Assembly: GCA_964399075.1 (NCBI GenBank)
Contig: CAYNPK010000001.1
Location: 55,457 to 119,456 of the forward strand
Source of the DNA: an uncultured Candidatus Saccharibacteria bacterium
GTDB lineage: Bacteria > Patescibacteriota > Minisyncoccia > Phycocordibacterales > JACOZG01
Direction: 5' to 3'
Length of the DNA stretch: 64,000 bases
A program made the position numbers and the translations under genes. This document shows positions 30,806 through 45,080 of this stretch, piece after piece; positions within the stretch are counted from its first letter, which is position 1, and each line of letters opens with the position of its first letter. The notes under the pieces are model-generated. The model saw only the letters and a list, made by a program, of their open reading frames with translations. It made no database searches and had not been told where the DNA came from.

Positions 30806-31795
30806 TTATTTTAAAGTAATTCCTAAATTATTCAAGGCCTTTTTTATTTCTGTCACTCCTTTTTCACCAAGACCAGTTATCTTTTTGAGATCTTCTTCCT
30901 TTTTTCTGGCCAAGCCACCAACCGTTCTGATGCCTTCTGTGGTTAAAGCTCGAGAAATACGGCTAGAGAGATTTAGATCATCAATTCTTGTTTTGAGAGC
31001 CTCATCTTGACCTTTTTGCTCCTCAGTGTCAGTAAAAGCCTCTTCTTTGCTAAAAATTTTGTCCTCATGATCTGATCCATCAACAGAAGCCTTGTCACTG
31101 TCTTCTTTCAAATCAGCAATTGATCTAAGTTGAGTAATCATGATTTCGATCGATTTTTGCAAAGCTTCCGCTGGTGTTAAAGTGCCGTCAGTTTCGATAT
31201 GTAAACGTAAGCGATTATAATTTGTTCTATCGCCGACTCTCATATTTTCTACTTCATAACTAATTCGACTTACGGGAGTAAAAGCTGCGTCAACGAAAAT
31301 TAAGCCGACTTCATTTTTTTCTCGAGACATTGACTCCTTAGGCAAGTAACCTAAACCCTTTTCTAGAGTCATTTCTACATTGAGTGAACTATTTTTTTCT
31401 GTTAACGTCGCAATGTGTTGAGTTTTATTTAAGATTTCAACCAAACCGCCAGTTTCAATATCAGACGCTGTTACCTCACGAGAACCCTTCACTGACAAAG
31501 TAATCTTTTTAGGCTCTTGATCGGCGAAATTAAATCTAATTTTTTTAAGATTCAAAATTACCATGATCATATCTTCTTTTACGCCTGGCAAAGTAGAAAA
31601 TTCGTGCTCAGCTCCCTCAATTTTTATTGAAGTAATAGCTACTCCCAATAAAGAAGACAGGATGATCCGTCGCAAAGAATTACCCAGAGTTTGACCGTAA
31701 CCAGGATGTAATCCTTCTATTTCATAAGTGCCACTGAAATCATTTTGACTGACAACTTTTAACTTAGAAGGCAAACTAATGTGTGACTCAATCAT
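30806..31795 (-). CDS. rpoA: DNA-directed RNA polymerase subunit alpha
   Basis: Alpha NTD (GTYEIEGLHPGYGQTLGNSLRR) and CTD (LNLSSRISRALTTEGIRTVGGLA...). Confidence 0.95.
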   Translation of the reverse strand: MIESHISLPSKLKVVSQNDFSGTYEIEGLHPGYGQTLGNSLRRIILSSLLGVAITSIKIEGAEHEFSTLPGVKEDMIMVILNLKKIRFNFADQEPKKITLSVKGSREVTASDIETGGLVEILNKTQHIATLTEKNSSLNVEMTLEKGLGYLPKESMSREKNEVGLIFVDAAFTPVSRISYEVENMRVGDRTNYNRLRLHIETDGTLTPAEALQKSIEIMITQLRSIADLKEDSDKASVDGSDHEDKIFSKEEAFTDTEEQKGQDEALKTRIDDLNLSSRISRALTTEGIRTVGGLARKKEEDLKKITGLGEKGVTEIKKALNNLGITLK

Positions 31796-33678: not shown

Positions 33679-34941
33679 CTACGAACTTATATTAGCAGAA
33701 GCCTCCGGATGAGTCAATACTTTAATTTCTATGTCTTCGGATTGAGACGGGAAATATCTAAGCCACGGTGGCCAAAAAATAGCCTTGGCCGAATAAATAG
33801 CTGGAAATTGTTGAGAAATGGACTCTCCTTGACGCTTAGAATTACCAGCTAATAATTGGCTTAGCGCAATGGTATCAACTTCAGCTTGAATATAAGCTTG
33901 GCCAGAAACAGTAAGAGTAATCGACTCTGAGCTCTCAGTCACTTGTTCTTTATTATTTATCGTGATATCCAGATCGCTTAAATTAGAGATGAAATATTTT
34001 AAATCTTGAAAATCGGGAATTTCTCCATTGATCAAGTGAACAGTAAATTGATTTCGGTCAAAAATAATCACGCGCGGTAGAGCTGAAACAGTTAAGGTTA
34101 CCGAATTATCTTCACCCTCATTAACTTGCAATTGTTCAGAAAAATCAACAGATAAAGAATCGGCAGACCAAATAAAGGTGTCCGGAATTTGCGTCACCAA
34201 TTGACCCAAAGCTTGTTCTCTCAAAATTTGCTCTAATTCCGCCCGAGAAGATCTCTTGTCGTCGTCGGCCACTTTGGGAATTGAGCCGACGTAGCCACCA
34301 GTCATGGGAGTTTTTGAGCGAGCATAGAATTTTTCATATCGCGGACTATCTTTAAATCCAGGAATAGAGAAATCAGTTAGTGGAGAATTATAATTTTCTC
34401 CCGGATTATCAGCATAAACTGTTACTTCAACTTGTCCGGGAACAATTTGACCAGAAATGGTTGTTTGACCGGGAACGACAACTTCTTTATTAATGCGATA
34501 AATATTACCCGCCGTAGACTCAAATCTAGTGCCGGTAATTAAGGTTTGAGGAGAAGTGTTAAAATTATTATAAATAACAATTTGACCGCTAGCTTTTTGT
34601 TCAACCTCTTCGATCCCGCTGGCGATAAGATTTCTAGAGTCAACTAGAGATGGGAAGGTGGCAATTTTAAAATCAGGAATTTGAACTTGTTTATTATCAA
34701 AAGTTAAAATTTCCTGTCTAGGTGTTATTTCTACAGAAACACTAGAAAATAAACTCCCGATCGTGTAGATGACAATAGAGAACAAAACTAAAACAGCGAC
34801 AATAATAAAAACACGAACAGTAGCCGGAGACGGAGATCGATGAGGTCTAGCGATTGATATGGCCACTGGTTTGGTTGCTGATACCTTCTTGGGTAAAATT
34901 TCGCTTAAACTTTTTTTGTGATTACGAATATCTTGAAACAT
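33679..34941 (-). CDS. hypothetical bitopic membrane protein (short cytoplasmic N-terminus, one TM, large extracytoplasmic domain)
   Basis: TM RVFIIVAVLVLFSIVIYTIGSLF. No recognised domain. First gene of a three-gene cluster between infA and alaS. Confidence 0.4.
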   Translation of the reverse strand: MFQDIRNHKKSLSEILPKKVSATKPVAISIARPHRSPSPATVRVFIIVAVLVLFSIVIYTIGSLFSSVSVEITPRQEILTFDNKQVQIPDFKIATFPSLVDSRNLIASGIEEVEQKASGQIVIYNNFNTSPQTLITGTRFESTAGNIYRINKEVVVPGQTTISGQIVPGQVEVTVYADNPGENYNSPLTDFSIPGFKDSPRYEKFYARSKTPMTGGYVGSIPKVADDDKRSSRAELEQILREQALGQLVTQIPDTFIWSADSLSVDFSEQLQVNEGEDNSVTLTVSALPRVIIFDRNQFTVHLINGEIPDFQDLKYFISNLSDLDITINNKEQVTESSESITLTVSGQAYIQAEVDTIALSQLLAGNSKRQGESISQQFPAIYSAKAIFWPPWLRYFPSQSEDIEIKVLTHPEASANISS

Positions 34942-34943
34942 AA

Positions 34944-36101
34944 TTAATTAATTGATTTTTTAATTCTACCATAAAAAACGGTTTCTGCTACTAGGGCTTG
35001 ATCATAAATAACCCCCGACGTTAAACTATAACCTTCTCGTAGAATATCAGCGGATAATACATTTACCATAAACGGCTTACGGCTAACTTTAAATTCACCG
35101 AATTCATACGCCTGAAGCCATTGATGGAACAATGGGGCCATCAGTGGATCACTGACAATAAAAACAGTACTTGGCATAAAGCAATCGTCTAAGACCTTAA
35201 TCAACCCCTGGCGGAAATTATCTAACCACTTGGTTTTAGCCTTATTTAATGCTTGATTTATCCGTTCCGCAATGAGTGGATGTTGCTTATTGGCGATAAA
35301 CAGAGCAAGAGAAGATCGCATTTCGGCTGGGGTTGTGGCAAACTCCTTAACCAAGGTTCTAAGCAACCAATGACTGCCGAAAGGGTAAGAAACACTCCCC
35401 CTTAGTAATTTCTGCCAAACTAGAGAAATCTCACTTACTTCCCCATCAACATCCAAAATAACAAAACTATCTTGATCTGAAATGTCTTTCAAAACTTGAT
35501 AGAAAGCGAAGGCGGTCGCACAAAATTCAACTTCAACATGATGCCATTTGGCCATAATCACTTTACGAAATTGGTCCAAAATTCGACTGGAACCAAGATT
35601 TAAATAATGAGCAATTTCCAGTTCGTTTACTTTCTGACCAAACGGATGAGGTAACAAATAACCATTAGTTTTAATTTGCATTTGTTCAGTTTGTATTAAT
35701 TCGTGAGCGGATTTTTTTTCTTGGGGAGAAAAGAGTGATGGCAGAGATCGTTTAAAAGTCGCGACCTGGCTCATCACTAATTTATTTACCAATTGCGATG
35801 TTAAGAGAAATGGCTTAATCTCACTTTTTTTAATTACTTGAGTGCGAGAGGCATAAAATGGCGCCGAAAGAAAGCAAACCACCTTCTCTGGACGAGAAGC
35901 GCCTTGAGAAATAAGCTGGGTGATAGATTCTTCCAGAGTCAGGACTACTTGATGCAGAAATCGTTCTGAAGTTAAATTTTCCTGGAAATTAACCTCTCGA
36001 CGAACTCGCTGAATGATTTCTGGTTTCGAGCCTTTCGATTGCTTCACTAAAGCGATTCCAATTGAGGCGCTACTAATATCAACAATAGCAACTGAAGACA
36101 T
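34944..36101 (-). CDS. actin-like ATPase fold protein (FtsA/PilM-like N-terminus)
   Basis: N-terminus VAIVDISSASIGIALVK resembles the phosphate-1 motif of FtsA/PilM/Ppx. About 385 aa. Weak overall. Confidence 0.35.
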   Translation of the reverse strand: MSSVAIVDISSASIGIALVKQSKGSKPEIIQRVRREVNFQENLTSERFLHQVVLTLEESITQLISQGASRPEKVVCFLSAPFYASRTQVIKKSEIKPFLLTSQLVNKLVMSQVATFKRSLPSLFSPQEKKSAHELIQTEQMQIKTNGYLLPHPFGQKVNELEIAHYLNLGSSRILDQFRKVIMAKWHHVEVEFCATAFAFYQVLKDISDQDSFVILDVDGEVSEISLVWQKLLRGSVSYPFGSHWLLRTLVKEFATTPAEMRSSLALFIANKQHPLIAERINQALNKAKTKWLDNFRQGLIKVLDDCFMPSTVFIVSDPLMAPLFHQWLQAYEFGEFKVSRKPFMVNVLSADILREGYSLTSGVIYDQALVAETVFYGRIKKSIN

Positions 36102-36125: not shown

Positions 36126-37685
36126 TTAAGGAAGGACACTGGGATTGTGAATAATTTTAAGCTTTTCAACTAAAGAAAGTATTTCTGAAGAGTCTGGACG
36201 ACTTTGTTGAGAAATCGAGATAAACTGAGCAATAGTCGGCCATAGAATCATCGAACGCCTTTCTGGTGTCAAATCATTCCAGTTTTCCGCTTCCTTATCT
36301 GGATCTGTGTAATCTGTGTGAGCTAGAACAGGGGGAGTTATTTTTTTTAGATTAGATTTAGGTTTGGATTTAACCAAAACAGGAAGATTATCATCTTCTG
36401 GGACTTGGGATGAAGTATAAAGTAAGACAGAAAAAGTTTCGCTAGCTGAATTATTAGACAGATCAACCGCCTGGCAAGTTACCAAAGTGGTACCAAGATC
36501 AAAAATCGTTCCAGAACTCGGACTACAAATAACCTCGACAACGCCATCGACCATATCGCTAGCAACTGGATAATCATAGTTAACAACGCTCGGTCCACCA
36601 ACTTCAATTTCTCTATCAACCACCGAAGATAAAACCGGTGGCGTAGTATCAACAACCGTAATTGTTCTTGTAATTGGTAGGGCTGAATTATCAGACAAAT
36701 TATTAACTTGATAAGTGACGATATGTTCGCCCAAAATAAGGGTATCAATTGGCAAACCGGTAACTTCAATAAGATCTGTAAGATCACCGTCATCTTGATC
36801 CCAAGCCGTAGCTCCGAAATCCACATAAGTTGAACCAGCCTCGACAACAATCAGCTCCTCGCCAATCAAAATAATAACAGGAAGATCTGGGTCAACCTCA
36901 ACAACTTCTTCCATTATTTCTTGCACGACAGTGTCAGAAGTACTGCCCTGGAAATTATCGTCACCCTCGTAAACAACAAAAAGTGAATGGAGCCCGGGCA
37001 ACAAATCAGAAATAGAAACAGTAGCCACGCCAGCAGAGTCTAATTCCAATGATTCAGCCAGATCTGTTTCCCCAAATTCACCAGTTTCTTTCAATTTAAT
37101 AACTCCGCTAGGAATACCAACACCGTCAGGAGAAGAATGAGACACAGTGACCACTAATTCTAAATCTTCTGTTGGCAAAGATGGGTTTGTTGCAGAAGAC
37201 AGAGTTATAATGCTATCAGCTTGATCGACTGTCTTATTTAAGGGGGCACTGTAGCCAATTGCAAGATTAATTAAACCCTCACTTTTATCAATAACTTCAG
37301 CAGTCAAATTAACTTCACCAGCCGAAGTGTCGCGATAGAAAAAATTATCGGTGTTTTGTCTGGGTGAAAGAATATCAAGAATTAAGTTTGTTTCTGTAAA
37401 ATCACCAACAGTGCTAGTATCAAAATACCCAGTTGGAGAATCTGAAGAAATTTTTACTCTAAGATATTGATCAGTCCCAGTTACCGCTTCAGCTAGGCCG
37501 TCAATATTTTGAGCCCGAATTCTTAGCGGTTTTGAAGTGATATTAGGCAAACCAACAATAAAACTTGGTGGCTGATCTACAGGATTAAATCCAATTTGAG
37601 TAATTTCATCACTGGCCGCTTCGACAATTCTAAAAACACCAAAAAGGCTAACCAAACAAAAGGTTAGAATAAAAAGATTTTTCAT
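36126..37685 (-). CDS. secreted protein with tandem bacterial Ig-like (DUF5011/HYR-like) domains
   Basis: Signal peptide. ...DDGDLTDLIEVTGLPIDTLILGEHIVTYQVNNLSDNSALPITRTITVVDTTPP and a second ...DGVVEVICSPSSG...LVTCQAVDLSNNSASETF repeat. Confidence 0.45.
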   Translation of the reverse strand: MKNLFILTFCLVSLFGVFRIVEAASDEITQIGFNPVDQPPSFIVGLPNITSKPLRIRAQNIDGLAEAVTGTDQYLRVKISSDSPTGYFDTSTVGDFTETNLILDILSPRQNTDNFFYRDTSAGEVNLTAEVIDKSEGLINLAIGYSAPLNKTVDQADSIITLSSATNPSLPTEDLELVVTVSHSSPDGVGIPSGVIKLKETGEFGETDLAESLELDSAGVATVSISDLLPGLHSLFVVYEGDDNFQGSTSDTVVQEIMEEVVEVDPDLPVIILIGEELIVVEAGSTYVDFGATAWDQDDGDLTDLIEVTGLPIDTLILGEHIVTYQVNNLSDNSALPITRTITVVDTTPPVLSSVVDREIEVGGPSVVNYDYPVASDMVDGVVEVICSPSSGTIFDLGTTLVTCQAVDLSNNSASETFSVLLYTSSQVPEDDNLPVLVKSKPKSNLKKITPPVLAHTDYTDPDKEAENWNDLTPERRSMILWPTIAQFISISQQSRPDSSEILSLVEKLKIIHNPSVLP

Positions 37686-39505: not shown

Positions 39506-39536
39506 TGATTTAGCTATTCTAACAAATTTTAAACAT

Positions 39537-39569
39537 AAAAAAAACAGGCAAACCTCATCGGCTTGCCTG
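39537..39569 (-). terminator. rho-independent terminator of the alpha-CTD-like gene
   Basis: Minus strand: CAGGCAA-loop11-TTGCCTG then TTTTTTTT. Confidence 0.55.
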
Positions 39570-39589
39570 CGCCTCACTCTCCCAGCTTG

Positions 39590-39988
39590 TCAAACACCAT
39601 CAGACTTTGCCGGCGACTTCCAGGCGAGAATCTCTCTTTCAGTCATCCCCAGACGAAGGCCAGAGATAGTGAGCAGTTTGCCTTCGATCTCCTTAAGAGT
39701 ACCGTACCCAAGACCACGAATACAAAGCAACTCATAGTCTCTCTTCCTGACCAATTCACCAATGGTCCGAATTCCAATTTTAACGAGACAATGTCTCGCT
39801 CGTGACGACAATTCAAGCAAGCTAAGTTCGCACTCAAAAATGTCGGCAGGTGAAGTTCTGGGTAACCCAACGAGGGGGTCACAATCTGACCAAATTCCAA
39901 TATATCTCAAGCGAGACTTGAGGGCTTGATTTTCTTTTTCCAGTCTTCGATTTTCTGCTTCGAGATTACTGATCCTGTTCGTCATCAC
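39590..39988 (-). CDS. stand-alone RNA polymerase alpha-subunit C-terminal-domain (alpha-CTD)-like protein with N-terminal coiled coil; high GC
   Basis: C-terminal ELSLLELSSRARHCLVKIGIRTIGELVRKRDYELLCIRGLGYGTLKEIEGKLLTISGLRLGM aligns with E. coli alpha-CTD [58 protein letters not shown]. N-terminal heptad region (LEAENRRLEKENQALKSRL). AGGA RBS. Confidence 0.6.
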   Translation of the reverse strand: MMTNRISNLEAENRRLEKENQALKSRLRYIGIWSDCDPLVGLPRTSPADIFECELSLLELSSRARHCLVKIGIRTIGELVRKRDYELLCIRGLGYGTLKEIEGKLLTISGLRLGMTEREILAWKSPAKSDGV

Positions 39989-40025
39989 ACACCGTCCTTT
40001 CTGGTTAGGGTTTTAGATGTCCAAG

Positions 40026-40055
40026 TCCACTTTAATATCTAGCATAAGCATCTAC
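40026..40055 (-). promoter_or_regulatory. putative promoter for the alpha-CTD-like gene (TTGACA-N18-TAGATA)
   Basis: Minus-strand TTGACAttatgtagatgcttatgcTAGATA upstream of the RBS; -10 is imperfect. Confidence 0.3.
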
Positions 40056-40061
40056 ATAATG

Positions 40062-41120
40062 TCAAACACTAATGATTCCCCCGCCCAAACACTCATTGCC
40101 ACGATAAATCACCAGAGATTGGCCGGAAGCGATGGCGCTTGGCGGTCTAGCGGTAAATTCTATTGTTAAAGATTTTCCCTGTTGGTTTAATACACAAGGA
40201 ACTAATTCGCCACGATGGCGAATTCTGGCGGTTAACTTGTTTAAATCAGTTTTACTTAGCAAATTAATTTGCTCTAGAGTAATTATTCTAGAATTAAGCT
40301 TATCGATAATTTTTTTATTTTGCGAAACTACCAAAATATTTTTTACCAGATCGCGACTGACAATATAATACGGCTTATCAGAGGCTGTTTTTTTATTTAT
40401 TTTAAATCCGTGACGCTCACCGATAGTATAGAATATCGCACCCTCATGTTCTCCTACCAATTCCCCATTATCGTTAAGAACCAGTCCAGATTTGGTCTTG
40501 AGATAACGTTTAAGAAAGTCTTTGACATCAACCTTGCCAATGAAGCACAGGCCCTGACTGTCTTTCTTAGTCGCATTTGATAATCCAAATTTACTTGCCA
40601 ACTTCCGTACTTCGGTTTTATGCAAGTGCCCCACTGGAAAAAGAATGTGCTTCAGTTGTTGAGTCTTAAGAGTCCAGAGGAAATAAGTTTGGTCTTTCTC
40701 TTTGTCTTTACTTGCTAATAATTTATTATTTTTAATTTGAGCGTAATGACCAGTTGCAACATAATCAGCGCCTCGTTCCATTGACCAATCGTAAAAAGCG
40801 CCAAACTTAATATGACGATTACACATTACGTCTGGATTAGGTGTCCGGCCGCGAGCGTATTCTCCAATCAAATAATCGACCACTTCCCTCTTGTAGATCT
40901 TCTCTAAATCAAGCGTCAAGAGTGGTATATCCAAGCGAGCGGCCACGCGCATCGCCTCACGTCTGTCATCTCGCCAAACACAAGGATAGCCGGGAGGTTC
41001 CCAAACTTTAATGAAAACCCCCACCACTTTATAGCCAGCCTTAACAAGCAAAGCCGCCGATACGGAACTATCGACGCCACCGGACAAACCAACAAAAACT
41101 GTGCCCTTTACTTGTCTCAT
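40062..41120 (-). CDS. mnmA: tRNA-specific 2-thiouridylase MnmA
   Basis: PP-loop VFVGLSGGVDSSVSAALL, MnmA conserved Cys residues. Confidence 0.9.
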   Translation of the reverse strand: MRQVKGTVFVGLSGGVDSSVSAALLVKAGYKVVGVFIKVWEPPGYPCVWRDDRREAMRVAARLDIPLLTLDLEKIYKREVVDYLIGEYARGRTPNPDVMCNRHIKFGAFYDWSMERGADYVATGHYAQIKNNKLLASKDKEKDQTYFLWTLKTQQLKHILFPVGHLHKTEVRKLASKFGLSNATKKDSQGLCFIGKVDVKDFLKRYLKTKSGLVLNDNGELVGEHEGAIFYTIGERHGFKINKKTASDKPYYIVSRDLVKNILVVSQNKKIIDKLNSRIITLEQINLLSKTDLNKLTARIRHRGELVPCVLNQQGKSLTIEFTARPPSAIASGQSLVIYRGNECLGGGIISV

Positions 41121-44006: not shown

Positions 44007-45080
44007 TTAAACCAGAGTATAACGCCCCTGTTTGTCTTGCTTGAAGTAACGACGATTCTTAATGTTAACCATAACGGTATTTTCTTTAACATAACGCTCT
44101 TTCATCACCTTGCTTAGAATTTCTTCTTTAGATAGAGGGCCATTATCTTTTATAATTTGACGAATGACATCTCTAACTACCCCTTTAATGTAACCCCACT
44201 CGCTAAGAGCATAGATACCGCGCCCAACTAGGATAAAGCGACCATCTTTAATTAATTCGTTATGACAAGTGGCAGAGTTAGCCTTGCGACCAAAGTTTTG
44301 CTGGATCGCCTTAGCAACTTCTGTAAAGTGCATTGGAGAACCATGCTTGCGCATAATTAAATAAGCATAATCACGAATGCCTCGAACATAAACATTGGGT
44401 GAGCTAGTTAATCCCCAATCACCGATTGGCGATTTTCCAATCTCCTTAGAGAGCATCAAATAACGTTTGGCGTGAGCCTTAGCTTGTTCCGGAGAAAGAG
44501 TTTCGTACAGATTTTTTAGAAAAGTATCAATAATCTCCTGTTCAGATAATAATTGATCTTCTGACAATTGAGTACACAAATTTTTAAGCGAGCCTCGAAC
44601 TCCTTCTGCCAATTCCGGATCAGTCGTCCAGTGGTGATAGAACGAATCTCCTTCTTTAACTTTAGAGAAGGCATCGCCTAACACTAGAAGAAAGTGAATA
44701 TTATTTTGGGTCATCCGTTCGCCAGATAGGTGGTTTAGAAATTCTTGCTCATGAACGATTCCGCCATATTGCTCCATCGCTGATTGCAATTCCGAAAAGA
44801 TTTCGGCTGACTCATTCATTACCGAAGAACGACGGATAGTCTTGAGACTAAAGTCTTCAATCTGGCGTACTCGTTCGCGGGTAATTTGATACTTTTTACC
44901 AATAGCCTCGAGGGTTAAACCTTTGTCGCTTTCTAAACCAAAGCGCATCTTTAAAATATCTTGCGCTCGCTCAGGCAAAACGGTTAACAAAGCACGGGTC
45001 ACCTTCTTTGGCTTAAATGTGAGAACTTCTTTGCTGATCATGATTAAATTTATTAAATCTATTCTTATAATTAAACTCAA
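44007..45080 (-). CDS. sigma-70 region-4-like HTH protein with C-terminal winged-helix (Mrr-N-like) domain; function unknown
   Basis: N-terminus LLTVLPERAQDILKMRFGLESDKGLTLEAIGKKYQITRERVRQIEDFSLKTIRR is a classic region 4.2. C-terminus ...GRGIYALSEWGY looks like a winged helix. Confidence 0.5.
   Translation of the reverse strand: MSLIIRIDLINLIMISKEVLTFKPKKVTRALLTVLPERAQDILKMRFGLESDKGLTLEAIGKKYQITRERVRQIEDFSLKTIRRSSVMNESAEIFSELQSAMEQYGGIVHEQEFLNHLSGERMTQNNIHFLLVLGDAFSKVKEGDSFYHHWTTDPELAEGVRGSLKNLCTQLSEDQLLSEQEIIDTFLKNLYETLSPEQAKAHAKRYLMLSKEIGKSPIGDWGLTSSPNVYVRGIRDYAYLIMRKHGSPMHFTEVAKAIQQNFGRKANSATCHNELIKDGRFILVGRGIYALSEWGYIKGVVRDVIRQIIKDNGPLSKEEILSKVMKERYVKENTVMVNIKNRRYFKQDKQGRYTLV

What the first reader, a model, noticed from the sequence alone, without database searches (positions are those of the whole stretch)
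39537..40055. Stand-alone RNA polymerase alpha-CTD paralog with N-terminal coiled coil, on its own promoter/terminator cassette
The 132-aa product's C-terminal 60 residues align residue-by-residue with E. coli alpha-CTD, including the DNA/activator-contacting helix-hairpin-helix and the terminal GLxLGM.

The N-terminus is a heptad-repeat coiled coil, which would dimerise the domain. The gene is GC-rich and framed by a TTGACA-type promoter and a T8 terminator.

The genome's own rpoA sits 8 kb away. A free, dimeric alpha-CTD could compete for UP elements or for class-I activator contact surfaces, acting as a transcription decoy or anti-activator. It could equally be a phage-style host-takeover factor.
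Basis: partly seen in the sequence, partly recalled or inferred. Interest (0 to 1): 0.65.

Follow-up and report, generated by a model that had tools for sequence, protein, structure and literature searches.

The report
Free-standing zipper-linked RNA polymerase alpha-CTD protein
A small gene in an uncultivated Patescibacteria genome encodes just the DNA- and activator-contacting end domain of the RNA polymerase alpha subunit, joined to a leucine zipper; the protein is real and very rare, and it probably modulates transcription, but nobody has tested what it does.

Summary
Window 39590-39988 (- strand) encodes a 131/132-aa protein. Residues 47-121 are a genuine RNA polymerase alpha-CTD: Pfam PF03118 E=3e-13, and the AF2 model superposes on E. 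coli alpha-CTD at 0.6-0.7 A. Residues 2-31 form a heptad leucine zipper with Asn at two 'a' positions, and a disordered linker joins the two parts. The hairpin+T8 terminator and the rpoA gene 7.8 kb away are confirmed.

Two claims are weaker. The 'TTGACA promoter' overlaps the mnmA stop codon and has no usable -10. The GC excess is mild.

The gene is a lineage-specific insert in the widely conserved mnmA-alaS junction; none of 80 related genomes has it there. It is not a recent copy of the host rpoA.

No full-length relative appeared among the top hits of an exhaustive search. A motif search then found two true relatives: a 143-aa protein with the same architecture and a 337-aa three-module protein. 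Both share a 'GMTxxEIxxWxxP' tail. Looser coiled-coil/alpha-CTD proteins occur in other Patescibacteria, and phages encode free alpha-CTD proteins of similar size.

The best reading is a dimer carrying two tethered alpha-CTD heads, which mimics the CTD pair of RNA polymerase and competes for AT-rich promoter DNA or alpha-CTD partners. That function is inferred, not shown.

The parts
39590..39988 (-). ORF of the zipper-alpha-CTD protein. It is 132 aa from GTG 39988; the likely start is ATG 39985, giving 131 aa. The stop codon TGA is at 39592..39590.
39896..39985 (-). Residues 2-31: N-terminal helix with a leucine-zipper heptad pattern (a = I6, N13, N20, L27; d = L9, L16, L23, I30).
   Evidence: AF2 predicts a helix over residues 2-31 with pLDDT above 90. 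L16, N20, L23, L27 and I30 are invariant in the three full-length-type relatives. Sub-threshold leucine-zipper Pfam hits.
39851..39895 (-). Residues 32-46: flexible Pro/Gly-containing linker.
   Evidence: AF2 pLDDT is below 50 for residues 33-39 and low up to about residue 45.
39626..39850 (-). Residues 47-121: alpha-CTD fold with two helix-hairpin-helix motifs. R63 corresponds to E. coli R265, the GLG hairpin is at residues 92-94, and GLRLGM is at 110-115.
   Evidence: Pfam PF03118 E=3.3e-13; PDB sequence hits; Foldseek rmsd 0.6-0.7 A to 3n97_B/1lb2_B; residue table.
39593..39625 (-). Residues 122-132: C-terminal tail. W123 and P126 belong to the family motif GMTxxEIxxWxxP.
   Evidence: alignments
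39995..40000 (-). Shine-Dalgarno-like AAAGGA, 9 nt upstream of ATG 39985.
   Evidence: read directly from the sequence
39536..39570 (-). Intrinsic-terminator-like hairpin (11-bp stem, 5-nt loop) followed by T8. It lies between the ORF stop and the alaS start (ATG 39505).
40060..40065 (-). It contains the TGA stop codon of mnmA, and there is no acceptable -10 at 16-18 nt.
40060..40069 (.). Copy 1 of an exact 10-nt direct repeat TGTCAAACAC, in the stop-codon context of mnmA.
39588..39597 (.). Copy 2 of the same 10-nt repeat, in the stop-codon context of the alpha-CTD ORF. The pair brackets a 472-bp segment and may be an insertion scar, but it is not statistically significant on its own.

Best explanation
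The gene encodes a small accessory protein. It has a short parallel leucine zipper (residues about 6-30), a flexible linker of about 15 residues, and a bona fide RNA polymerase alpha-CTD with an RpoA-like C-terminal tail.

Inferred mechanism: the zipper makes a homodimer that displays two flexibly tethered alpha-CTD heads. This is the same geometry as the CTD pair of the alpha2 dimer in RNA polymerase, but without the alpha-NTD that would build it into the enzyme. Such a dimer would bind the AT-rich minor-groove (UP-like) DNA next to promoters, or the proteins that normally dock on alpha-CTD. In doing so it would compete with the polymerase's own alpha-CTDs and most probably dampen or re-direct initiation at a subset of promoters.

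Shown: domain identity, fold, heptads, linker, terminator, and status as a lineage-specific insertion.

Inferred: dimerisation, DNA or partner binding, and any effect on transcription.
For: - Domain identity and fold.
- R265-equivalent R63, G296-equivalent G94, E302-equivalent E100 and E261-equivalent E59 are retained.
- The zipper a/d positions, including the Asn at 'a', are conserved in the 34%-identical full-length homolog P0216 and in module 1 of P0045. This argues for selection on the whole architecture.
- Looser relatives with a coiled coil or N-terminal extension plus alpha-CTD (P0238, P0258; Patescibacteria) keep the canonical R/N...N-x-G-x-K-S DNA-contact set.
- Independent small fusions of a sigma-70 region 4 HTH with alpha-CTD exist (P0267, P0270). 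This links free alpha-CTDs with promoter DNA recognition.
- There is no alpha-NTD: TIGR02027 scores 43.5 against a cut-off of 227.8. The protein therefore cannot assemble into RNA polymerase.
- From established knowledge: alpha-CTD binds UP-element minor grooves through the 265 determinant and is the docking site for class-I activators, sigma region 4, Spx and NusA.
Against: - N268, N294 and K298 equivalents are His, Gly and Gly. Each of these positions is needed for UP-element binding in E. coli, from the literature as I recall it, so canonical UP binding may be weakened. The host RpoA itself has Arg, Gly and Lys at these positions.
- There are no expression data.
- There is no conserved gene neighbourhood among relatives.
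- The exact protein is known only from one genome and two sequencing runs, so selection on this particular copy cannot be measured.
Confidence: 0.4

Rival explanations
1. It is an ordinary gene-specific or architectural DNA-binding protein. It uses the alpha-CTD helix-hairpin-helix fold simply as a DNA-binding module, dimerised by the zipper. It acts on its own sites and has no functional relation to the polymerase's alpha-CTD.
For: The helix-hairpin-helix hairpins and R63 are retained, and the domain carries a net charge of about +2, counted from the sequence. Alpha-CTD domains occur in many non-polymerase architectures: TPR plus two alpha-CTDs, tandem arrays, and PglW.
Against: No target sites or regulated neighbours can be identified, and the contexts of relatives differ. 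The RpoA-type C-terminal tail (GM...W..P) is preserved, which suggests that more than a generic DNA-binding role is kept.
Confidence: 0.25
2. It is a pure protein decoy. The free alpha-CTD heads sequester proteins that normally dock on the polymerase alpha-CTD (activators, Spx-like anti-alpha factors, NusA) and do not bind DNA.
For: Three DNA-contact residues are replaced while the fold and surface helices are intact.
Against: The CTD is no closer to the host RpoA CTD (23.4 bits) than to E. coli's (23.3 bits). Host-specific docking surfaces are therefore not obviously copied. Positions of the '287' and '261' surfaces differ: T285 is Arg, V287 is Tyr and D259 is Leu.
Confidence: 0.15
3. It is a recently inserted accessory gene, possibly of mobile or phage origin, with little or no role for the host. 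It would be a 'moron'-like cassette that landed in a variable intergenic hotspot.
For: - It is absent from the mnmA-alaS junction of all 80 related genomes, where the gap ranges from 16 bp to 5 kb and holds unrelated small ORFs.
- GC3 is higher than in the neighbours.
- An exact 10-nt repeat sits at both borders.
- The relative P0045 sits beside a Bro-N gene.
- Phages encode free alpha-CTD proteins of 98-156 aa.
Against: There are no phage, integrase or transposase genes nearby. There are no terminal inverted repeats. There is no sequence relative in viral or plasmid collections. The ORF is intact with a good Shine-Dalgarno sequence and a high-confidence fold, and the architecture is conserved at 34% identity.
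Confidence: 0.15
4. It is a phage-style host-takeover factor acting during infection.
For: Phage-encoded free alpha-CTD proteins exist.
Against: The gene sits between mnmA and alaS in a housekeeping stretch, and no prophage features were found. There are no sequence-level phage relatives.
Confidence: 0.03

Closest known systems
C-terminal domain of the bacterial RNA polymerase alpha subunit (RpoA alpha-CTD; e.g. E. coli 1LB2/3N97, B. subtilis 1Z3E)
   Same: Same fold: rmsd 0.6-0.7 A and 38-39% identity. R265, G296, E302 and E261 equivalents are kept, as is the GLxLGM motif and a W..P tail.
   Different: There is no alpha-NTD, so it cannot enter the polymerase. The N-terminus is a leucine zipper instead. 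N268, N294 and K298 equivalents are His, Gly and Gly. It is only as close to the host RpoA as to E. coli RpoA.
Its own small family: P0216/P0286 (143 aa, soil or sediment metagenome contig Ga0210388_10173897) and P0045 (337 aa, three modules)
   Same: N-terminal zipper 'ENRxLxxxNQxL', a 'D-IF' motif, an alpha-CTD, and the tail 'GLxLGMTxxEIxxWxxP'. The query is 34% identical to P0216 over residues 3-128.
   Different: In P0216 the first helix-hairpin-helix hairpin is degenerate. P0045 has three tandem modules. Genomic contexts are unrelated: htrA for P0216, and Bro-N/secE-nusG for P0045.
Coiled-coil or N-extension plus alpha-CTD proteins of other Patescibacteria (P0238/P0239/P0249, 197-198 aa; P0258, 130 aa, Candidatus Uhrbacteria)
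   Same: They are small, carry a single alpha-CTD at the C-terminus with a GLRLGM...W tail, and have an N-terminal helical region.
   Different: The N-terminal regions are longer or unrelated. The DNA-contact residues are canonical. Similarity outside the CTD is weak.
Phage-encoded free-standing alpha-CTD proteins (UniProt/BFVD A0A6J7WD60, A0A6J5MNY7, Mycobacterium phage Mithril A0A5Q2WLP1; IMG/VR UViG_3300025286_000463 156-aa ORF)
   Same: They are 98-156 aa with an N-terminal extension plus one alpha-CTD. Foldseek probability is 1.0, and one aligns over 124 columns.
   Different: Identity is only 20-28% and confined to the CTD. They are encoded in phage genomes. I know of no functional characterisation.
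TPR + 2x alpha-CTD proteins (about 440 aa) and tandem alpha-CTD arrays
   Same: They are among the best-scoring alpha-CTD matches to the query, at about 46 bits per domain.
   Different: They are large, with TPR repeats or 3-8 tandem CTDs, and have no zipper.
Spx-type 'anti-alpha' regulation (a functional analogy from established knowledge, not homology)
   Same: It would interfere with activator/alpha-CTD communication at promoters.
   Different: Spx binds alpha-CTD. The protein here would imitate alpha-CTD. This was not tested here.

Membership tests
Pfam PF03118 RNA_pol_A_CTD (domain family) | HMM score above the curated gathering cut-off | tested here: met
   49.6 bits against 23.8, E=3.3e-13
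Pfam PF03118 RNA_pol_A_CTD (domain family) | Compact alpha-CTD fold with two helix-hairpin-helix motifs | tested here: met
   AF2 pLDDT 90-96. Foldseek to 3n97_B/1lb2_B/8y5t_A2: rmsd 0.6-0.7 A, target-normalised TM-score 0.87-0.96.
Pfam PF03118 RNA_pol_A_CTD (domain family) | Complete E. coli '265 determinant' for UP-element DNA binding (R265, N268, N294, G296, K298, S299, E302) | tested here: not met
   R63, G94 and E100 are kept. H66, G92, G96 and T97 replace N268, N294, K298 and S299. This feature defines the function, not domain membership.
RpoA, RNA polymerase alpha subunit (TIGR02027 / NF003513-19) | N-terminal dimerisation and assembly domains (PF01193, PF01000) and a full-length score above cut-off | tested here: not met
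   43.5 bits against a 227.8 cut-off, with only the CTD matched. The true rpoA is at 30806..31795.
NCBIfam NF005841 (PRK07758) small alpha-CTD-like hypothetical protein | Score above the curated cut-off | tested here: not met
   21.3 bits against 115
BREX PglW | Full-length kinase protein; PADLOC/NCBIfam model match over its whole length | tested here: not met
   Only a 53-residue local match to the internal alpha-CTD-like segment: 19-22 bits against a 990 cut-off.
Parallel dimeric leucine zipper (GCN4/bZIP-type coiled coil) | At least 3 heptads with hydrophobic a/d positions, Leu at d and buried Asn at a | tested here: met
   a = I6, N13, N20, L27 and d = L9, L16, L23, I30, read from the sequence. 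Helix over residues 2-31. These positions are conserved in relatives.
Parallel dimeric leucine zipper (GCN4/bZIP-type coiled coil) | Actual homodimer formation | not testable with these tools
Pfam zipper families hit only below threshold.
Zipper-alpha-CTD family defined here (query, P0216, P0045) | N-terminal ENRxL..NQxL zipper, an alpha-CTD, and the GMTxxEIxxWxxP tail | tested here: met
   End-to-end alignment with 34% identity and pairwise E=2e-15; invariant columns.

The most novel reading that the evidence does not exclude
The protein is a minimal 'alpha-dimer mimic': two alpha-CTDs held by a zipper. It would act as an endogenous competitor of RNA polymerase for UP-like DNA or for alpha-CTD-docking factors. 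That would be a previously undescribed class of bacterial transcription regulator working by subunit-domain mimicry, found in regulator-poor Patescibacteria and paralleled by free alpha-CTD proteins in phages.
Probability: 0.25. Interest if true: 0.7.

Novelty: new variant of a known kind. Interest (0 to 1): 0.45.

Why it matters
Alpha-CTD is the main hub through which bacterial activators and UP elements recruit RNA polymerase. A cell- or phage-encoded free alpha-CTD, dimerised like the real alpha2, would be a simple way to tune or hijack that hub by mimicry. No such regulator has been characterised, as far as I know or could find; a 2026 review of alpha subunits does not mention one.

The gene sits in a Patescibacteria genome. 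A testable candidate regulator of this kind is therefore useful.

The search also showed that non-polymerase alpha-CTD proteins form a large, unstudied population that pipelines auto-annotate as 'RNA polymerase subunit alpha'. It includes TPR + 2x CTD proteins, tandem arrays, sigma region 4-CTD fusions and phage proteins.

Tried and rejected
- Recent duplication of the host rpoA CTD: rejected. There is no DNA similarity, and the CTD scores 23 bits against the host RpoA versus 42-48 bits against free alpha-CTD proteins.
- Conserved syntenic gene of Patescibacteria: rejected. None of 80 mnmA loci has an alpha-CTD ORF by tblastn or by HMM.
- Phage, plasmid or defence origin by sequence: nothing was found in IMG/VR, INPHARED (the hits were bacterial rpoA contamination), PHROGs or PLSDB. 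PADLOC gave only the PglW internal domain.
- IS or MITE insertion: there are no terminal inverted repeats. The 10-nt border repeat is not significant on its own; 32% of shuffles give such a pair.
- T-box or other RNA element upstream of alaS: Rfam finds only four tRNAs in the window.
- Sigma-70 promoter for the gene: the scan found none on the - strand.
- afdb50 fold search: the library was unavailable.
- Literature on free alpha-CTD proteins: four searches found nothing relevant.
- Metagenome scan with the protein's own peptides: nothing. A degenerate DNA pattern for the tail motif then found L090; the other six hits were chance matches.

Full report
**What is there**

The region holds one ORF on the - strand, 39590..39988. 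From the GTG at 39988 it encodes 132 aa. An ATG one codon later (39985) lies 9 nt downstream of an AAAGGA Shine-Dalgarno sequence and gives the 131-aa form. That form is the one present, identical, in one NCBI assembly (contig of 352,935 bp) and two Logan assemblies, SRR11845627 and SRR11845628.

The upstream neighbour on the same strand is mnmA (40062..41120). The downstream neighbour is alaS, whose real start is ATG 39505. The wider stretch is housekeeping: RNase T-like exonuclease, yceG/mltG, leuS, and the rpsM-rpsK-rpsD-rpoA cluster.

The genome belongs to the Patescibacteria (CPR). Its mnmA is at most 62% identical to genomes labelled Vogelbacteria, Paceibacterota or 'Saccharibacteria'.

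**Check of the observation**

The alpha-CTD claim is solid.
- Pfam PF03118 matches residues 53-105 with E=3.3e-13, at 49.6 bits against a cut-off of 23.8.
- NCBIfam RpoA models match only through their last 60-70 positions and stay far below their full-length cut-offs.
- The 40 or so best PDB sequence matches are all alpha-CTDs. The best is B. subtilis 1z3e_B at E=2e-7. For E. coli, query 57-116 aligns with alpha 259-317.
- An AlphaFold2 model built on a 26-sequence alignment has mean pLDDT 84. It shows a helix over residues 2-31 (pLDDT above 90), a disordered linker (residues 33-45) and a compact domain over residues 47-121 (pLDDT 90-96).
- That domain superposes on crystal structures of E. 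coli alpha-CTD (3n97, 1lb2, 8y5t) at 0.6-0.7 A over 67-68 residues, with target-normalised TM-scores of 0.87-0.96.

The similarity is therefore to alpha-CTD specifically, not to a generic helix-hairpin-helix.

A column-by-column comparison gives the following.

| E. coli position | Residue here |
|---|---|
| R265 | R63 (kept) |
| G296 | G94 (kept) |
| E302 | E100 (kept) |
| E261 | E59 (kept) |
| GLSLGM 311-316 | GLRLGM 110-115 (kept) |
| N268 | H66 |
| N294 | G92 |
| K298 | G96 |
| S299 | T97 |
| D259 | L57 |
| T285 | R83 |

The host's own RpoA CTD also deviates. It has Arg at the 268 position, Gly at 294 and Gly at 299. E. coli rules therefore may not transfer to this lineage.

The N-terminal region is a textbook heptad pattern read from the sequence: a = I6, N13, N20, L27 and d = L9, L16, L23, I30. 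From general knowledge of GCN4-type zippers, Asn at 'a' positions favours parallel dimers. Pfam zipper families (TSC22, HALZ and others) hit only below threshold. Dimerisation itself could not be modelled.

The terminator is real. An 11-bp stem at 39570..39544 is followed by T8, with -22.4 kcal/mol and z = -3.0 against shuffles.

The promoter claim is weak. The TTGACA at 40065..40060 contains the TGA stop of mnmA, and the scan found no - strand promoter. The best -10 candidate is TAGATA at an 18-nt spacing, matching 3 of 6 positions. Read-through from mnmA, 74 bp away with no terminator between, is at least as likely.

'GC-rich' amounts to 46.1% against 40.9%, the 88th percentile of 399-nt windows. 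GC3 is 44% against 26-40% in eleven neighbouring genes.

rpoA lies at 30806..31795, 7.8 kb away, and has all three RpoA domains.

**Origin and relatives**

The mnmA-alaS adjacency is conserved across Patescibacteria, and even in a Mycoplasma genome. In many genomes the two genes are 16-60 bp apart. In others the gap is 0.3-5 kb and holds unrelated small ORFs.

None of the 80 related loci has an alpha-CTD ORF, by tblastn or by an alpha-CTD HMM run over 1.04 Mb of six-frame translations. The gene is therefore a lineage-specific insert in a variable junction.

An exact 10-nt direct repeat (TGTCAAACAC) sits on the stop codons of both mnmA and the new ORF and brackets 472 bp. Such a pair arises in 32% of shuffles. 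It is nonetheless the only 10/10 match among the stop contexts of 25 genes. I treat it as a possible insertion scar, nothing more.

The CTD is not a recent copy of the host rpoA. There is no DNA similarity. The CTD-only phmmer score is 23.4 bits against the host RpoA and 23.3 bits against E. coli RpoA, but 42-48 bits against non-polymerase alpha-CTD proteins.

An exhaustive phmmer search of 1.84 billion representatives found 1739 hits. The 150 best-scoring hits that are listed match the CTD only (a few alignments reach back to about residue 18-29). Most are TPR + 2x alpha-CTD proteins of about 440 aa or tandem arrays of 3-8 CTDs. The word-index search found only the protein itself.

The best single-domain hit, P0045 (337 aa), shares a tail beyond the domain (GLRLGMTxxEILAWKxP). 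Its first module aligns with the whole query, including an ENxRL zipper start.

A degenerate DNA pattern for that tail then recovered, from JGI metagenomes, a 143-aa ORF (L090 775..1206, identical to P0216/P0286). It has the same zipper, linker, alpha-CTD and tail. It is 34% identical to the query over residues 3-128, with a pairwise E=2e-15. The zipper positions L16, N20, L23, L27 and I30 are invariant among the three.

Looser relatives of the same design are P0238/P0239/P0249 (197-198 aa, a long coiled coil plus alpha-CTD) and P0258 (130 aa, Candidatus Uhrbacteria). P0238's neighbour gene is at least 90% identical to a protein of a 'Patescibacteria group bacterium'.

The gene neighbourhoods of these relatives have nothing in common. 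P0045 lies next to a Bro-N gene between gyrB and secE-nusG.

**Phage question**

By sequence there is no phage relative in IMG/VR peptide or pattern scans, INPHARED tblastn or PHROGs. There is none in PLSDB plasmids either.

By structure, however, BFVD holds about ten phage proteins of 98-149 aa named 'RNA polymerase, alpha subunit, C-terminal'. Examples are A0A6J7WD60, aligned over 124 columns, and a Mycobacterium phage Mithril protein.

An IMG/VR contig also encodes a 156-aa protein with an unrelated N-terminal part and a canonical alpha-CTD (L094 3704..4174).

Free alpha-CTD proteins are thus a catalogued kind. I know of no functional study of them, and a 2026 review of alpha subunits does not mention them.

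**How it most likely works**

Shown: a zipper-type helix, a flexible linker, an authentic alpha-CTD with an RpoA-like tail, no alpha-NTD, an intact ORF with a Shine-Dalgarno sequence and terminator, and conservation of the architecture at 34% identity.

Inferred: the zipper forms a parallel homodimer carrying two mobile alpha-CTD heads. This reproduces the CTD pair of RNA polymerase without the assembly domain.

From established knowledge, alpha-CTD binds AT-rich UP-element minor grooves through R265 and its neighbours, and it is the docking surface for class-I activators, sigma region 4, Spx and NusA. The most economical mechanism is therefore competition with the polymerase's own CTDs for promoter-upstream DNA or for those partners.

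Supporting hints:
- The looser relatives keep the full DNA-contact set.
- Small sigma region 4-alpha-CTD fusions exist (P0267, P0270).

Against:
- Three canonical DNA contacts are replaced in this copy.
- There are no expression or binding data.

I put this mechanism at 0.4. The rivals are:
- a stand-alone DNA-binding regulator unrelated to the polymerase (0.25);
- a pure protein decoy (0.15);
- a recently acquired, possibly idle cassette (0.15);
- a phage takeover factor (0.03).

**Verdict**

The 'promoter' and 'GC-rich' details are overstated, and 'paralog of the nearby rpoA' is true only in the distant sense.

The protein is a new, very rare architectural variant (zipper + alpha-CTD) of an already catalogued but uncharacterised kind, the free-standing alpha-CTD proteins. 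Interest is moderate at 0.45: it offers a neat, directly testable hypothesis of regulation by subunit-domain mimicry, with no functional evidence yet.

Noticed in passing
window 44007..45080 (-): A 357-aa protein combines a sigma-70 region 4 HTH (PF04545, E=2e-13) with a HARE-HTH domain (PF05066, E=6e-9). It lies 4 kb upstream of the alpha-CTD gene. It is another unusual small transcription-related protein in this genome and a conceivable partner, because in E. coli alpha-CTD contacts sigma region 4.
   Followed up: no
L003-L082 (mnmA loci of 80 genomes); e.g. L006 7153..7530, L008 7145..7525: The mnmA-alaS junction is a variable spot across Patescibacteria, with gaps from 16 bp to 5 kb. L006 and L008 share a roughly 125-aa ORF ('MAR..M.P.EA...QFR.GLGPVS...') there. 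L004 and L006 share a roughly 100-aa ORF. L050 has a membrane protein in the gap.
   Followed up: partly
proteins P0267 (228 aa), P0270 (193 aa), P0268, P0271: These are small proteins that fuse a sigma-70 region 4-type HTH to a single alpha-CTD. In one polypeptide they combine the domains corresponding to the two RNA polymerase modules that in E. coli read the -35 element and the UP region. They are uncharacterised.
   Followed up: no
proteins P0013, P0019-P0029 etc.: A large family of proteins of about 430-460 aa has N-terminal TPR repeats and two tandem alpha-CTD domains. It dominates the list of alpha-CTD hits outside RpoA. Arrays with up to 8 alpha-CTD-matching stretches also occur (P0002, 1788 aa; P0003, 736 aa).
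   Followed up: partly
L083 6318..9014: The three-module relative P0045 sits next to a divergently oriented Bro-N domain gene and two small unannotated ORFs. The group lies between gyrB and secE-nusG and looks like a small accessory islet.
   Followed up: no
window 39506..39535 (-): Directly after the terminator's T8 run there is an extended -10-like TGTTAGAAT, about 10 nt before the alaS ATG. This suggests that alaS has its own promoter with a very short leader.
   Followed up: no
window 33679..36101 (-) and 36126..37685 (-): Two ORFs of 420 and 385 aa have no Pfam match. They are followed by a 519-aa protein with Ig-like/HYR surface domains. All three lie between the ribosomal-protein/rpoA cluster and alaS.
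   Followed up: no
databases: Free-standing alpha-CTD proteins and fragments are routinely auto-named 'DNA-directed RNA polymerase subunit alpha' by JGI/IMG, P0286 among them. This hides the class from keyword searches.
   Followed up: no
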